Source: the human T2T-CHM13v2.0 reference genome, Homo sapiens. From it: 64,000 bases of DNA. This document shows, piece by piece, positions 56,541-62,800 of the stretch. The stretch's first letter is position 1. Every line of letters begins with the position of its first letter. The notes under the pieces were generated by a model that was not told the origin of the DNA, made no database searches, and saw nothing but the letters and a program-made list of their open reading frames with translations. The stretch is from the NCBI RefSeq assembly GCF_009914755.1, contig NC_060925.1, one strand, 5' to 3'. Made by a program: the position numbers and the translations under genes.

Positions 56541-58466
56541 TTATTTTTTTTTTTTTTTGAGAAGTCAAAACATGTTTAGCCCCGAAGATGCCTGGAATTT
56601 TCCGTATGAACAGCATAGGCATCATTAATGAAGATGAAAACTTGTTAGAAAAGAGCAAGTTTTTCTGCTTAGCAACTTTGGAATATGACATTTTGTAAGT
56701 TCTACATATTCCCTTCAAGGATTAATTAGCCATTATTTAAAGTTTTCTTGCTGTCCACAGTATTCCTTGGTAATGCCAAAAAACTTATATGTCTTTTCTT
56801 GAGTGGTGACAAAACTTAGACTTGAACCTAAATTCAGAAATCAAGCCTTTTAAGTTTAAGCTCAGTTACAATTATGTTGCATTGTTTTCTTTCATTAGCC
56901 ATTTTTTGAAAGAGTAGTGTTGGGTAATAACCATAAACGATAGTGCTTTTTTGAATAAGCATACTGGGACTTTAAAGACCTAAATTAAATCTTGTCTTTC
57001 TAAGTTATTTTAGGAGGCTATATGCTAATTTCACTTATGAGGTCATTCCAAAATTTCTGGAACCTTCTTTTCATGGAGTTGTCTTCAAAATCAGTATGCC
57101 ATCCACACAGGAAAATCTTGGTATTTATAGTCGCAGTACTTGCCTTTTTTCAGCTCAGGAGTTTTCTGTCATTTCCTACATGAAGTCCTCACTTCAGCCT
57201 ATGTAGTGCTTACCATTTCCATTCTCTCTCCTTCCCCGGCCTGTAACCCTCATCTGAGAAACTCCAAACTACACAGATAAAGGAAGAGAGATAGGGGGCA
57301 GGAGGCTCCACTGTTGCTGCATGGTATGAGATGCCCCTGAAAGAGCAGCTATGTAGGTCAAGGTGGCAAGAAGTGTGCAATAGTCTGCTCCAGCTTACCG
57401 GAAATAAAATATAGCCAGGACATTTAAATTGTAATATATCAGGATGTATCTGGTTTCATAATTTTGTTTGCTCCCATACAAATGAATTCTACCTAGAAAT
57501 CGAGTGGGATAATTTTCTGCAAATATGCCTTAGCTGTACTTTGGATGGAGTCAGAGGCTGAGGCTATGAGAAGGTGCCTATAATAAGAGGGAGTTAGTGG
57601 CTGACAATTTGCTTGGTGGTTGTGTGCAAGATAAGTAAGAGGGGAAAGACCAGTGTATGAAGGAGACTAAGGAAAATCCTAACAGGACAATTTAATATTT
57701 GGAAATTGTGAACCTTGACTCTGATCGAACTCCAAACCAATTCACCTCCTCTCATTTCCCCATCATGCCTTTATCTCCTTGTTCTGATTACCCTCCTCAT
57801 TCATTCTTCTGAGATGGCTTACCCGATTCTCAGAGTTCACCCCGCATCCTTGTTAAAAATCTTTTAAAAATTCTTTTGTCATCATTATAACTTTGTATCT
57901 ATTTCACCATCTTTCACAGGTTGGAAAGTATTGTTTCTAACTTTAAAAAAGCTATGTGATGGGGCATAATAGTTCATGCCTGTGATAGTGGTACTTAGGG
58001 AGGCCGAGGCGGGAGGATCACTTGAGCCCTGGAGTTTGAGACAACCCTGGGCAACATAGTGAGACCCCCATCCCTATAAAGGGGAAAAAAATGAGCCAGC
58101 TTTGTGCACACCTCTAGTCCCCCCAGGAGGATAGGGGGCGACTGAGGTGAGAGGATTGCTTGAGCCTGGGAGGTCGAGGCTGCAGTGAGCCATATTTGCG
58201 CCACTGCACTCCAGCCTGGGTGACAGAGCAAGATTGTCTGAAAAAAAAAAAAGCTACTTGTTTTCAATTATTGTCAGTTTTCCAGACCCCTATTTTAGCA
58301 GTATTTTCTTAAAGCTCAGGGGCAAGGCAAATGCAGGATTCTGTTTTGTTTTGTTGTCCAGAATGGGAATGACAATTATCATCTATAGGGTAGGTGGTAA
58401 AGAGATGGAAGAGATATTTTGACCTTTTGTTTTGTTGTCCAGACCTGAAACCAGAAACTGTAAGTG

Positions 58467-59461
58467 TTAAAAAAAAAAAAAAAATGAAGTGTACCCTATC
58501 AAAATGTTAAATGTACAGTACACTATTGTTTACTAGATGCACTTCATTGTAGAGCAGATCTCTAGAACTTTTTCATCTTGTATGACTGAAACTGAGTACC
58601 CATTGAACAATTCCCCATTTCTAACCCCTCCAGCTCCTGGCAACCACCATTTTACTTAACTGATTCTGTAAGTTTGACTACTTTAGATAATACATATAAG
58701 TGGAATCATGCAGTATTTGTCCTTTCATGACTGGTTTATTTCACTTGGCCTATTTTTTTTTTTTTTTTTTGAGACGGGGTCTCACTGTGTCACCCAGGTT
58801 GGAGTGCAGTGGCGCGATCACAGCTCACTGCAGCTTGAACTCCTGGGCTCAAGTAATCCTCCCTCCTCAGCTTCTTGAGTAGCTGGAATCATAGCTGCAT
58901 GTCACTATGCCTGGCTTACAAAAGTTTTGCTTTGTTTTGTTTTGTTTTTGGTACAGACTGGGTCTTGTTTTGTTGCCCAGGCTGGTCTCAAACTCCTGGC
59001 TTCAAGTGATCCTCCTGCCTCGGCCTCCTGAGGTTCTGGGATTGTAAGTGTGAGCCACCCTGTCCAGCTGACTTACCCTAATTCTTAAGGATCATTCACA
59101 TTGTAGCTTATGACAGAATTTCCTTCTTTTTTAAGGCTGAATTATTCCATTGTATTTATATCCCACATTGTCTTTATTCAACCATTGATGGACATTTAGG
59201 TTGTTTGCAATTCTTGGCTATTGTGAATAATGCTACTATGAACACGGGACAGCAACTATCCCTTTGGGATCCTGTTTTCAATTCTTTTGGATAAATACCC
59301 AGAAGTGGGATTGCTGCATCTTATGGTAGCTCTATTTTTAATTATTTGAGAAGCCTTCATATTGTTTTCCATAGCAGCTTGACCATTTTACATTCCCACC
59401 TTAGCGTTCAAGGGTTCCAATTTCTCCACATCCTTGCCAACACTCATTATTTCTTGTTTTC
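58467..59461 (-). mobile_element. L1MA9/L1MB-like antisense fragment with a nested AluJ (about 58753-59069, -)
   Basis: gtagagcagatctctagaactttttcatcttgtatgactgaaact and further antisense L1 3' motifs; gtaagtg repeated at 58460-58466 and 59462-59468. Confidence 0.7.
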
Positions 59462-59854
59462 GTAAGTGATATTACTGATGTTATTGAAAAGATTACAGAA
59501 AATTTTGAGTTATAAGTAGACAATTTTAATGTAGAGTATAAAGCTTAGGAAATTGTGAGGAATTGAATATGAGGCTTCAGATGGACTATAATTACATGTA
59601 TGCACTGCCCCGATTTTTTTTATACAAATTATAGAAATATCTGCATTGCTTCAAAATTTATATAACTATAGGTTTGAAATATGTCATGTACTTTATACAA
59701 AATTTTATCTATTATGATAATGGTTGTACAACATCATGACTGTACTTAGTGCCAGTGAATGATACACTTAAAAATGGTTAAAATCTTAAATCTTATTTAC
59801 ATTTTACCACAATTTTTTAAAATGCTCCCAAAATTGTGTCTATTAAAAGTTTCT

Positions 59855-62800
59855 GGCCAGGCGTGGTGGCTCACCTGAGGTCAAGAATTTGAGACCAGCC
59901 TGGCCAACATGGTGAAACCCCGTCTCTACTAAAAATACAAAAATTAGCCGGGCGTGATGGTGGGTGCCTGTAGTCCCAGCTACTCAGGAGGCTGAGGCAG
60001 GAGAATTGCTTGAACCTGGAAGATGGAAGTTGCAGTGGGCCGATATCATGCCACTGCATTCCAGCCTGGGGGACAGAGTGAGACTCCATCTCAAAAAAAA
60101 AAAAAAAAAAAAAAAAAAAGAGTCTCTGGTAAACACCTTGTCTCTTCAAATCCTAAAAACCACCATTTGCATAATTGCTGATTGTAAGTGAAATAATATG
60201 ATTTATTATCTAGTATGAAGTTCATTTCTATGAACTTCATTTCTGACCATTTCCTGGTGCCAGTCAATAGATGTGGCAGTTGTTACTGAGCATTCTCGAA
60301 CCTCCTTTTAGATAAAAGAAGTCAGGGACAGTCACGTAGTCTTCTACTGCCTCTGGCTCAGCTGAGAGCATTGTAATATGTTTTCTTCCCCATGCAAACC
60401 ACAAACGGGGTGTGTGTGTATGTACTTGTGCATATAGATATATTTAATCCTGATTAACAAGATACTGAAGAAAGAAAGCAGCTGTGTTCTGTATTACTTT
60501 AAGCATTTAGTACAGGAAAAGAGGCATTTCTGCAGGTAAATAGATTTATAAATATAACTCATCCTGTTTCACTGCCGTAGCTACATATGTAGGAGTAAAC
60601 CTACAGGAGGTCAAGCAGCATGTAACTAGGGAACTCCTATATTTAGTTGAGAAAAATTAATCATGATACTTCGCAGAGACTTCTGGAAGAAAATTAATTA
60701 GCATTATATTCTAAAGGAATTTAGGATGGGGGAATGAATAGGTCTTTGCATCAACATACGTGCTATGATTGAAAGGCAAATAAAAACTAGTTAGGGCTTG
60801 GTGACTCTTCTTCCCTAATAAGGGAAATGTTCATGATATTTTAATTGAAAAATATTTAAAAAGTTACAGAGAATATCCCAATTTAAAAAAGTTTTATATA
60901 CATATGTGTTCCAAAATGTAAATAGTAGTAACTTTTGGGTGATGTGATTATATATTTTGTACTTTTTCTACATCTTCTCTAATTATATATAATATTTACT
61001 TTTTTTTTTTTTTTTTTTTTGAGACAGGGTCTCACTCTGTTGCCTAGGCTGGAGAGCAGAGGTGCAAATAGGGCTCACTGCAGCTGGAGAGCAGAGGTGC
61101 AAATAGGGCTCACTGCAGCTGGAGAGCAGAGGTGCAAATAGGGCTCACTGCAGGCTGGACCTCCCTGGGCTCAGGTGATCCTCCCACTTCAGTCTGCTGA
61201 GTAGCTGGGACTACAGGCACACACCACCATGCCCAGTTAATTTTTGTATTTTTTGGTAGAGAGGGGGTTTCACCATGTTGCCCAGGCTAGTCTCGAACTC
61301 CTGGGCTCAAGGGATCTGCCCACCTCAGCCTTCCAAAATGCCAGGATTACAAGTGTGAACCACTGTGCCTGGCCTTAGCACTTTTCTTATCAGAAAATAA
61401 AAATTTTATATATAGAGAGAGAGAGAGAGAGAGCAAATGAAATGTTATTCCCTTTGCAGTGGTGGGAGGTGTACTTGAAATGTTTGTTGTTTTCTTTTTC
61501 CTTTTTTTTTTTTTTTTTTGAGATAAAGTTTCACTCTTGTCGCCCAGGCTGGAATGCAATGGCGCCATCTCAACTCACTGCAACCTCTGCCTCCCAGGTT
61601 CAAGTGATTCTCCTGCCTCAGCCTCCCGAGTAGCTGGGATTACAGGCATGCGCTACCATGCCTGGCTAATTTTTGTATTTTTAGTAGAGACGGGGTTTCC
61701 CCATGTTGGCCAGGCTGGTCTCGAACTCCTGACCTCAGGTGACCCACCCACCTCAGCCTTCCAAAGTGTTGGGATTACAGGTGTGAGCCACTGCACCCGG
61801 CCGAAATGTTTGTTGTTTACATCAAATTTTATTTTCTTTTTCTTTTTTTTGAGATGGAGTTTTACTCTTGTTGCCCAGGCTGGAGTGCAATGCCGTGGTC
61901 TTGGCTCACTGCAACCTCCGTCTCCTGGGTTCAAGCAATTCTCCTGCCTCAGTCTCCTGACTAGCTGGGATTACAGGGGCCTGCTACCATGCCCGACTAG
62001 TTTTTGTATTTTTAGTAGAGACGAGGTTTCACCATGTTGGCAAGGCTGGTCTTGAACTCCTGACCTCAGGTGATCCGCCTGCCTTGGCCTCCCAAAGTGC
62101 TGGGATTACAGCCGTGAGCCACCACGTCCGGCCCAAATTTCCTTTCCATGGATGAATGGTGATGATAACAACCATCCACAGCCTAGGAAAAAAGTCATAA
62201 TTTAAGTATTCTAGCCTAGAAATACAAGCTGTCAAACTATTGGGCAAGATAAGAGGCTTACAGTTGCTGATGCAATTATTATATAAAAAGAATATGCAGC
62301 AGTCAGAGAAAATCTTTAGCCAAGTGAATAGATAATACAACTATACTGCACACACATTCTAGAAGAGAAGAATATGGAGAAGAACCAGAGATCATACTTT
62401 GTATATGTAAAATCAAGTAGATCGTAGGCTTAGAGGTTTCATTTATATCAGCAACTAATTTACGTGTGTCTGTATTATTCAATGTAGGATCATTATAGAT
62501 ATGAGGTATTTTAACACTGCAGATGATTTTTCAGTATGGTCTGAGGTGGTATAGTCATACATGCACTTGATCTTGCTTCTTTTCTCATAGCTAAAATAAA
62601 CTCTAGGGTTGGGCATTAAAAACTATGGTTTTAAGCATTTAAACAGTAAGAAGTTTCTATTCTATTTAGAAATAAATTTTACAAAATAACAATGTAACTG
62701 GTATGGTTATTCATTATTAACTAAGAACAAAGCCAATTTTATGTGTGTACCTGAGTAAATTTGTAAAGCAAACTCCTTAGCAAAATATTGTCAAGCTCCC

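What the first reader, a model, noticed from the sequence alone, without database searches (positions are those of the whole stretch)
57277..62400. Apparent fossil KRAB zinc-finger gene downstream of ZNF684, in correct exon order
Seen in the sequence: (1) 58287-58442 resembles the ZNF684 intron just before its finger exon (53567-53724). Both carry the identical 15-mer ttcttaaagctcagg (58306-58320 vs 53585-53599), flanked by agcagt and aggcaaat, and lying 122 vs 125 nt before an acceptor AG. (2) That acceptor, ttttgttgtccag|AC CTG AAA CCA GAA ACT, opens like the ZFP69 last exon (cag|AC TTG AAG...GAA ACC). (3) 57295-57400 translates GAGGSTVAAWYEMPLKEQ-LCRSRWQEVCNSLLQL, which aligns with [40 protein letters not shown]; the segment from cacag| at 57276 is 124 nt vs 127 nt. 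(4) 57534-57630 is a 97-nt segment (KRAB-B exon is 96 nt) between an AG and a dead donor AAG|ATAAGT; protein similarity here is poor. (5) 57741-57785 resembles ZNF684 intron sequence 49025-49065. (6) Finger-like debris: YKYNSSCFTAVATYVGVNLQEVKQ (about 60547-60618) keeps exact C2H2/linker spacing, and EKIFSQ...acacattctagaagagaag lies at about 62305-62370. Inference: a tandem duplicate of the ZNF684 ancestor that died long ago. An L1MA9-like element sits about 24 nt into its last exon, which would date the loss near the early eutherian radiation. I do not recall an annotated pseudogene here.
Basis: partly seen in the sequence, partly recalled or inferred. Interest (0 to 1): 0.8.

Follow-up and report, generated by a model that had tools for sequence, protein, structure and literature searches.

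The report
Decayed partial copy of ZNF684 tail

Summary
Only part of it exceeds chance.

**Real:** window 57473-60560 (+) is collinear with the ZNF684 3' end at 52779-55330. That covers distal intron 4, the exon-5 acceptor region and the 3'UTR down to the polyA signal. Identity is about 68-72% and K2P distance 0.35-0.41. The chain score is 398, against 65-101 for reversed, complemented and reverse-complement controls. Within 104 kb the blocks are each other's only significant matches.

**Not real:**
- The proposed KRAB-A (57277-57400) and KRAB-B (57534-57630) score like shuffles. KRAB-B lies inside the intron-homologous block.
- The "finger debris" scores like control DNA and lies past the polyA-signal homolog.
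- 0 of 103 plus-strand ORFs hit KRAB or zinc-finger Pfam families.
- DNA profiles that detect an older fossil nearby find nothing here.

The finger-coding exon body (about 1.06 kb) is missing. An A-run, LINE-like repeats and an Alu sit in its place.

**Outside the window:** a genuine fossil KRAB zinc-finger locus exists further downstream. It has a frameshifted KRAB-A exon at window-equivalent 70700-70825 and a decayed finger array at about 89406-90050.

**Verdict:** partly supported and ordinary.

The parts
52779..55330 (+). Reference copy: ZNF684 distal intron 4 (52779-53724, with an Alu at 53074-53391), exon 5 (53725-55330; coding to 54623), AATAAA at 55309-55314
   Evidence: Hub annotation
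57473..57961 (+). Relic block A: homolog of ZNF684 intron 4, 52779-53073 and 53399-53540. Homology starts sharply with a 15/15 identical stretch at 57473 / 52779.
   Evidence: blastn E = 9e-9; semi-global alignment z = 11.5; 68.5% identity over 270 aligned nt, K2P 0.41
57962..58254 (.). Alu inserted after the duplication (absent at the matching place in ZNF684)
   Evidence: 5 or more copies in the window
58255..58442 (+). Relic block B: homolog of the last ~185 nt of ZNF684 intron 4, including the shared 15-mer (58306-58320) and an acceptor-like pyrimidine tract + AG ending at 58442
   Evidence: z = 10, 0 of 500; alignment z = 8.35; 69.8% over 126 nt; only a self match in the genome search
58443..58465 (+). 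23 nt after the acceptor-like AG; homology to the exon-5 start cannot be shown
   Evidence: z = 0.29
58466..59492 (.). Filler in place of the finger-coding exon body: A-run 58466-58481, high-copy repeat 58482-58749, Alu 58750-59077, LINE-like piece 59112-59470
   Evidence: 4883 first-look candidates, 40 of 40 scored at 75-81%; 59112-59470 matches three other window copies at 69-70%; Alu; no finger similarity
59493..59714 (+). Weak homolog of the proximal-to-middle ZNF684 3'UTR (54789-54981)
   Evidence: Local alignment z = 3.9, 1 of 500; collinear dot-plot blocks
59715..59828 (+). Short high-copy repeat insertion flanked by a 15/17 identical direct repeat (59698-59714 / 59829-45), read as a target-site duplication
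   Evidence: 680 first-look candidates; the 39 non-self matches among the 40 scored, at 77-84%, cover 59707-59826; flank repeat z = 3.9, 1 of 500
59855..60119 (.). Alu inserted after the duplication
60120..60560 (+). Relic block C: homolog of the distal ZNF684 3'UTR (54984-55330). AATAGA at 60539-60544 aligns with the ZNF684 AATAAA at 55309-55314
   Evidence: blastn 72.6% over 95 nt, E = 1e-9; 71.9% over 324 aligned nt, K2P 0.35; only a self match in the genome search
57277..57400 (+).
60547..60618 (+).
62305..62400 (+).

Best explanation
Window 57473-60560 is a non-processed, DNA-level paralogous copy of the 3' end of the ZNF684 ancestor. It holds the last ~650 non-Alu nt of intron 4, the exon-5 acceptor region and the 3'UTR down to the polyA signal.

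Inferred history: a duplication of about 2.6 kb or more placed this copy a short distance downstream of the ZNF684 polyA site. I favour a duplicate that carried only the 3' part of the gene. It was therefore never an independent gene and has drifted neutrally. About 0.19 substitutions per site per copy suggests roughly the time of the early eutherian radiation.

The ~1.06 kb that should encode the spacer and eight fingers, plus the first ~165 nt of the 3'UTR, is absent. Its place is taken by an A-run, LINE-like repeats and an Alu, so the loss was a deletion or replacement and not decay. The relic has no function today.

Shown: the paralogy, the absence of coding remains, and the repeat filler. 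Inferred: the partial extent of the original duplicate, the link between LINE insertion and the deletion, and the date.
For: 1. Collinear same-strand chain of 10 blocks, score 398, against 101, 98 and 65 for reversed, complemented and reverse-complement controls. The dot-plot has 147 forward windows against 45 and 30.
2. Anchor HSPs reach E = 1e-9 and 9e-9. Semi-global alignments give z = 11.5, 8.35 and 9.83.
3. The homology includes intron sequence up to the acceptor, so it is not a retrocopy.
4. In 104 kb, both strands, the blocks at 57473-57961 and 60120-60620 and their ZNF684 partners are each other's only hits at E <= 0.01, apart from one weak AT-rich hit.
5. Whole-genome searches with 58255-58465, 60400-60620 and 56566-57472 find only themselves. 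The same tool finds hundreds to thousands of candidates for the filler repeats.
6. The ZNF684 AATAAA aligns with AATAGA in the relic.
7. No coding remains: 0 of 103 ORFs hit KRAB or zinc-finger families. tblastn best E = 0.8, against 1.1 on reversed DNA. nhmmer best E = 1.3 for KRAB-A and 63 for fingers, while the same queries give 1.4e-25 and 3.5e-11 on the older fossil further downstream.
8. Only about 1.07 kb of non-Alu DNA lies between the ZNF684 polyA site and the start of homology, too little for a promoter, four exons and their introns.
Against: - A simple tandem unit predicts that the DNA after the relic resembles the DNA after ZNF684. No chain above controls was found in the downstream flanks (66 against 33, 62 and 136) or the upstream flanks (71 against 172, 60 and 135).
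- Similarity in the 23 nt after the acceptor is not significant, so the exon itself is not demonstrably represented.
- The 59493-59714 block is only modestly supported (z = 3.9). Two blocks of the chain lie in this AT-rich stretch.
- Shuffle controls were mononucleotide shuffles.
- No repeat library (Dfam/RepeatMasker) and no other mammalian genome was available. An old low-copy repeat origin and the timing could not be tested directly.
- The genome-wide DNA search did not even recover the 72% ZNF684 match, so it is blind to repeats below about 75% identity.
Confidence: 0.7

Rival explanations
1. A whole-gene tandem duplicate of the ZNF684 ancestor once lay here. Its promoter, KRAB exons and most introns were later deleted, as was its finger array, leaving only the 3' flanks.
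For: KRAB zinc-finger clusters grow by whole-gene tandem duplication (established knowledge). This cluster holds another dead member further downstream. The missing downstream-flank homology also fails to support a neat partial tandem unit.
Against: It needs at least two large deletions. No KRAB signal appears anywhere in 55331-64000, even with a DNA profile that scores the older fossil exon at E = 1.4e-25. Homology starts abruptly at 57473 with a 15/15 match, as at a duplication breakpoint. Only ~1.07 kb of non-Alu DNA lies upstream.
Confidence: 0.2
2. One reading: a complete fossil KRAB zinc-finger gene within 57277-62400, with KRAB-A at 57277-57400, KRAB-B at 57534-57630, the finger exon from 58443 and finger debris at 60547-60618 and 62305-62370.
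For: The acceptor region and the intron block are truly homologous to ZNF684. Segment lengths of 124 and 97 nt resemble the 127 and 96 nt of the real exons.
Against: KRAB-A and KRAB-B give z between -0.98 and 0.85 at DNA and peptide level. There are no Pfam hits in 103 ORFs. KRAB-B lies within the alignment to ZNF684 intron 4. The debris lies beyond the polyA-signal homolog and scores like control DNA. nhmmer profiles are negative with positive controls.
Confidence: 0.02
3. No duplication took place. ZNF684 intron 4 / 3'UTR and the downstream interval each acquired the same old, low-copy interspersed repeats independently, in the same order and orientation.
For: No repeat library could be consulted. 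The homology has a sharp 5' edge, as a repeat terminus would. The genome-wide search cannot see repeats below ~75% identity.
Against: It needs at least two different repeats in the same order, strand and similar spacing on either side of the exon position. Homology runs up to the exon-5 acceptor and up to the polyA signal of a gene. No third copy appears in 104 kb on either strand, which argues against abundant families such as MIR or L2.
Confidence: 0.07
4. Chance similarity of AT-rich non-coding DNA.
For: Some blocks (59464-59714) are AT-rich and weak.
Against: Chain score 398 against at most 101 in three controls. E = 1e-9 and 9e-9 for the anchors. z = 8-11 for the alignments.
Confidence: 0.01

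Closest known systems
Non-processed (duplicated) pseudogene fragment, i.e. the relic of a partial segmental or tandem duplication
   Same: DNA-level copy that keeps intron and UTR sequence in the original order and strand next to its parent gene. It has no open frame and was later riddled with Alu and LINE insertions.
   Different: No coding sequence survives at all, so standard protein-based pseudogene pipelines would not find it. The whole coding exon body has been replaced.
ZNF684 (parent gene, KRAB C2H2 zinc-finger family)
   Same: 68-72% nucleotide identity over distal intron 4 and the 3'UTR. The acceptor region and polyA signal are aligned.
   Different: The relic has no KRAB box and no C2H2 fingers.
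Fossil KRAB zinc-finger locus at window-equivalent 70.7-90 kb (found here, outside the window)
   Same: Same cluster, same strand, also dead.
   Different: It keeps recognisable coding remains: KRAB-A at Pfam E = 4.5e-13, and fingers at tblastn E = 5.7e-9. It shows no detectable non-coding similarity to ZNF684. It is therefore an older and independent paralog, not the missing half of the relic.

Membership tests
KRAB zinc-finger gene or pseudogene (for 57277-62400) | KRAB-A box (Pfam PF01352) | tested here: not met
   0 of 103 ORFs hit it, positive control 2.3e-25. DNA z = -0.05 and peptide z = -0.98. nhmmer KRAB-A profile best E = 1.3, against 4.7 on the reversed control and 1.4e-25 on the true fossil.
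KRAB zinc-finger gene or pseudogene (for 57277-62400) | KRAB-B exon | tested here: not met
   DNA z = -0.47. Peptide z <= 0.85 in three frames. The segment aligns with ZNF684 intron 4.
KRAB zinc-finger gene or pseudogene (for 57277-62400) | Array of C2H2 fingers (PF00096 / PF13465) | tested here: not met
   0 of 103 ORFs hit them, positive control 9.4e-46. tblastn best E = 0.8, against 1.1 on the reversed control. nhmmer best E = 63, against 3.5e-11 on the true fossil. ORF scores equal those of control regions.
Duplicated (non-processed) gene fragment of ZNF684 | Collinear, same-strand similarity to the parent above controls | tested here: met
   Chain 398 against 101, 98 and 65; E = 1e-9 and 9e-9; z = 8-11.
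Duplicated (non-processed) gene fragment of ZNF684 | Retains intron sequence (which excludes a retrocopy) | tested here: met
   57473-58442 aligns with intron 4, 52779-53724.
Duplicated (non-processed) gene fragment of ZNF684 | Shared blocks are not interspersed repeats | tested here: inconclusive
   No third copy in 104 kb and only self matches genome-wide. The genome search misses matches below ~75% identity, and no Dfam library was on hand.
Duplicated (non-processed) gene fragment of ZNF684 | Presence and state of the interval in other mammals | not testable with these tools
   Only prokaryote genomes and this assembly are searchable.
LINE-1 fragments (filler 58482-58749, 59112-59470, 59715-59828) | High-copy dispersed repeat | tested here: met
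   4883 and 680 first-look candidates. Apart from the query's own self match, all 39 other scored hits in each search lie on many chromosomes at 75-84% identity. 59112-59470 has three window copies. The name LINE-1 rests on my recall of its 3' end. Subfamily and orientation were not tested.
Fossil KRAB zinc-finger locus outside the window (L003 / L006) | KRAB-A box and finger array, both disabled | tested here: met
   KRAB Pfam 4.5e-13 and 1.5e-6 for the two halves on either side of a 1-nt deletion. 72% identity to the ZNF684 KRAB-A exon, E = 7e-20. Fingers: tblastn 5.7e-9, against 5.2 on the reversed control, with many stops. Pfam on the fingers is weak only (zf-H2C2_2, 0.0033; 1 of 8 ORFs). 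Whether both parts belonged to one gene was not tested.

The most novel reading that the evidence does not exclude
The DNA distal to ZNF684 records at least two separate gene-death events in this small, old KRAB zinc-finger cluster. One is the 3'-end relic at 57.5-60.6 kb. The other is an older, once complete fourth cluster member, with a frameshifted KRAB-A exon at 70700-70825 and a decayed ~7-8-finger array at ~89.4-90.05 kb. That KRAB-A exon now lies inside the span of lncRNA LOC105378673. If so, a dead zinc-finger gene's 5' end may live on as a lncRNA, and an intact ortholog may survive in some mammalian lineage.
Probability: 0.45. Interest if true: 0.35.

Novelty: new member of a known kind. 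Interest (0 to 1): 0.2.

Why it matters
The main value is bookkeeping. Protein-free duplication relics like this one escape pseudogene annotation. Recognising them prevents non-coding similarity from being read as a dead gene or as a conserved element.

Together with the true fossil further downstream, the relic shows that the ZFP69B / ZFP69 / ZNF684 cluster lost members long ago. That is a small data point for birth-and-death evolution of KRAB zinc-finger genes. It changes nothing about ZNF684 function.

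Tried and rejected
- **Genome-wide DNA search** with the homologous blocks returned only self matches. It cannot see matches near 70% identity, so it does not settle the old-repeat rival.
- **Flank homology beyond the relic** was sought in both directions. Nothing exceeded the controls, so a tandem unit could not be defined.
- **Inverted-repeat test** between the two LINE-like pieces (58466-58749 vs 59078-59830) gave no hit at E <= 1. I dropped a 'twin-priming' reading. Orientation and subfamily remain undetermined.
- **Similarity of the relic to the ZFP69 last intron or exon** yielded only AT-rich low-complexity hits.
- **Nearest relative of the downstream KRAB-A fossil**: it is about equally distant from ZNF684 (72%), ZFP69 (72%) and ZFP69B (76%), so no parent could be named.
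- **Literature**: 'ZNF684' (44 papers, 20 seen as a listing only), 'ZNF684' + 'pseudogene' (4 papers, listing only, none about this locus) and 'LOC105378673' (0 papers). No paper was read. Subscription journals and pseudogene catalogues such as GENCODE were not searchable.

Full report
**Setting.** The window is human chr1 with ZFP69 (last exon), EXO5 and ZNF684. The finding covers 57277-62400, distal to the ZNF684 polyA site at 55330. I read the region and its claimed counterparts.

**Unbiased comparison.**
- blastn of 56400-64000 against the rest of the window gave 1809 HSPs, nearly all Alu or LINE.
- After removing high-copy stretches, the best remaining hits all pointed to the ZNF684 3' end on the same strand:
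  - 60456-60545 with 55221-55315: 72.6% over 95 nt, E = 4e-7. With +1/-1 scoring this improves to 1e-9.
  - 57477-57580 with 52783-52887: E = 9e-9.
- 58294-58340 with 53572-53622: 78%, E = 0.002.
  - Weaker collinear hits: 57623-57785 with 52902-53080, and 59452-59502 with 54761-54810.
- A dot-plot (30-nt windows, at least 21 matches) gave 147 forward windows, against 45 with reversed and 30 with complemented ZNF684 sequence.
- With repeats masked over 55331-64000 against 38000-57274, the best forward chain had 10 blocks and a score of 398. Controls scored 101 (reversed), 98 (complemented) and 65 (true opposite strand).
- Semi-global alignments gave 66-68% identity, with z = 11.5 (100 shuffles), 8.35 and 9.83 (200 shuffles each).
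- Over the best-aligned stretches, identity is 68.5-71.9% and the Kimura two-parameter distance is 0.35-0.41.

**Anatomy of the relic.**
- Homology begins abruptly at 57473 / 52779 with 15 identical bases. Upstream of that point the alignment is no better than random.
- It runs through 57473-57961 and 58255-58442, which correspond to the last ~650 non-Alu nt of ZNF684 intron 4. Independent Alus lie at 57962-58254 in the relic and at 53074-53391 in ZNF684.
- It reaches an acceptor-like pyrimidine tract and AG at 58442, which aligns with the ZNF684 exon-5 acceptor at 53724.
- The 23 nt after the AG are not demonstrably similar to the exon start (z = 0.29).
- Next comes filler:
  - an A-run at 58466-58481;
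  - a high-copy repeat at 58482-58749 (4883 first-look candidates genome-wide; 40 of 40 scored at 75-81%);
  - an Alu at 58750-59077;
  - a LINE-like piece at 59112-59470, which matches three other copies in the window.
- Similarity to ZNF684 resumes weakly at 59493-59714 with 54789-54981 (z = 3.9, 1 of 500).
- It is interrupted by a short high-copy insertion at 59715-59828 (680 candidates). That insertion is flanked by a 15/17 identical direct repeat that I read as a target-site duplication. A further Alu sits at 59855-60119.
- Similarity then continues strongly over 60120-60545 with 54984-55315.
- The ZNF684 polyA signal AATAAA (55309-55314, 16 nt before the annotated transcript end) aligns with AATAGA at 60539-60544.
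- The counterpart of ZNF684 53725 to ~54788 is therefore missing. That is the whole exon-5 coding sequence plus ~165 nt of 3'UTR.
- Calling the filler LINE-1 rests on my recall of the LINE-1 3' end.

**Coding remains.**
- I translated all 103 stop-free plus-strand ORFs of at least 20 aa in 56566-62400 and scanned Pfam at E <= 10. None hit KRAB or any zinc-finger family. The ZNF684 KRAB-A exon gave 2.3e-25 and its finger exon 9.4e-46.
- tblastn of ZNF684 against 56566-64000 gave a best E of 0.8 (20 bits). The reversed sequence gave 1.1.
KRAB-B does the same (z = -0.47; peptide z <= 0.85).
- The 'KRAB-B' segment lies inside the block that aligns with ZNF684 intron 4.
- The finger-like ORF at 60544-60657 gives z = -0.11 and starts 3 nt after the polyA-signal homolog.
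- The ORF at 62328-62399 scores 41 (z = 4.5 against its own shuffles). ORFs scoring 41 or more are as frequent in four control regions.
- Frameshift-tolerant DNA searches (nhmmer --max) used a profile of three real KRAB-A exons and the ZNF684 finger DNA. In 55331-64000 they gave best E = 1.3 and 63, like the reversed control.

**A positive control that turned into a finding.**
- To see what lies beyond the window I fetched the next 40 kb.
- tblastn found a KRAB-A box at L003:6700-6825, which is window-equivalent 70700-70825 on the plus strand.
  - It is a 126-nt exon with intact AG and GT borders and a 1-nt deletion.
  - Pfam KRAB gives 4.5e-13 and 1.5e-6 for the two halves.
  - It is 72% identical to the ZNF684 KRAB-A exon, E = 7e-20.
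  - It is about equally distant from ZFP69 (72%) and ZFP69B (76%).
  - It lies within the span of lncRNA LOC105378673 in the hub's table.
- At L006:~5406-6050 (window-equivalent 89406-90050, plus strand) there is a decayed finger array with many stops.
  - tblastn gives 5.7e-9, against 5.2 on reversed DNA.
  - nhmmer gives 3.5e-11.
  - Pfam is weak only (0.0033, in 1 of 8 ORFs).
- No non-coding similarity links this locus to ZNF684 or to the relic. It is therefore an older, separate paralog.
- The methods can thus detect an older dead KRAB zinc-finger gene. Their silence in 57277-62400 means the coding parts are absent there, not merely decayed.

**Repeat rival.**
- In 104 kb, both strands, the two anchor blocks of the relic (57473-57961 and 60120-60620) and their ZNF684 partners are each other's only hits at E <= 0.01, apart from one weak AT-rich hit. 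The smaller blocks 58255-58465, 59827-59854 and 53392-53760 gave no hit at that threshold. That argues against abundant old families.
- Genome-wide searches found only self matches. They cannot see ~70% identity.
- Two different rare repeats in the same order and strand, ending at a gene's acceptor and at its polyA signal, is possible but unlikely. I give it 0.07.

**Interpretation.**
- The best reading (0.7) is a DNA-level duplicate of the 3' end of the ZNF684 ancestor. It lay downstream of the parent's polyA site, was redundant from birth, and later lost its coding body by deletion or replacement around LINE insertions.
- A whole-gene duplicate that lost its 5' half is the main rival (0.2).
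- Against a neat partial tandem unit, no flank homology was detected beyond the relic.
- Dating: about 0.19 substitutions per site per copy is slightly more than what I recall for the human branch since the human-mouse ancestor. This is recall, not a computed result.

**Novelty.** The hub's RefSeq table lists neither the relic nor the downstream fossil as a pseudogene. Three literature searches found nothing on them, from listings only. Pseudogene catalogues and supplements were not seen. This is an ordinary kind of object, a duplication relic, so I score interest low.

Noticed in passing
L003:6700-6825 (window-equivalent 70700-70825, + strand; outside the window): Genuine KRAB-A pseudo-exon of 126 nt, with a 1-nt deletion that causes a frameshift and intact AG/GT borders. 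Pfam KRAB E = 4.5e-13 and 1.5e-6 for the two halves. 72-76% identical to the KRAB-A exons of ZNF684, ZFP69 and ZFP69B. It lies within the span of lncRNA LOC105378673.
   Followed up: partly
L006:~5406-6050 (window-equivalent ~89406-90050, + strand; outside the window): Decayed C2H2 finger array of roughly 7-8 units, with many stops and lost cysteines, between two Alus. tblastn with ZNF684 gives E = 5.7e-9 and nhmmer 3.5e-11. It is not in the hub's RefSeq table. It may be the 3' part of the same dead gene as the KRAB-A exon 19 kb upstream.
   Followed up: partly
window 58344-58362 and 58425-58443: The acceptor-like motif (pyrimidine tract + cag + a) occurs twice as an exact 19-nt direct repeat, 81 nt apart. 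Which copy, if either, descends from the ZNF684 acceptor is not certain (the alignment places the second at 53724).
   Followed up: no
window 59698-59714 and 59829-59845: A 15/17 identical direct repeat flanks a ~114-nt high-copy repeat piece. It looks like the target-site duplication of a short 5'-truncated LINE insertion into the 3'UTR homolog.
   Followed up: partly
window 56566-57472: About 900 nt of non-Alu DNA between ZNF684 and the relic. It resembles nothing in 104 kb, and only itself in the genome search. Its origin is unknown.
   Followed up: partly
L003:2495-4220 (window-equivalent 66495-68220; annotated pseudogene LOC100328982): No similarity to ZNF684 here apart from two chance-level hits at E = 2.5 and 3.6. 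Its ORFs look Alu-rich. What it is a pseudogene of was not determined.
   Followed up: no
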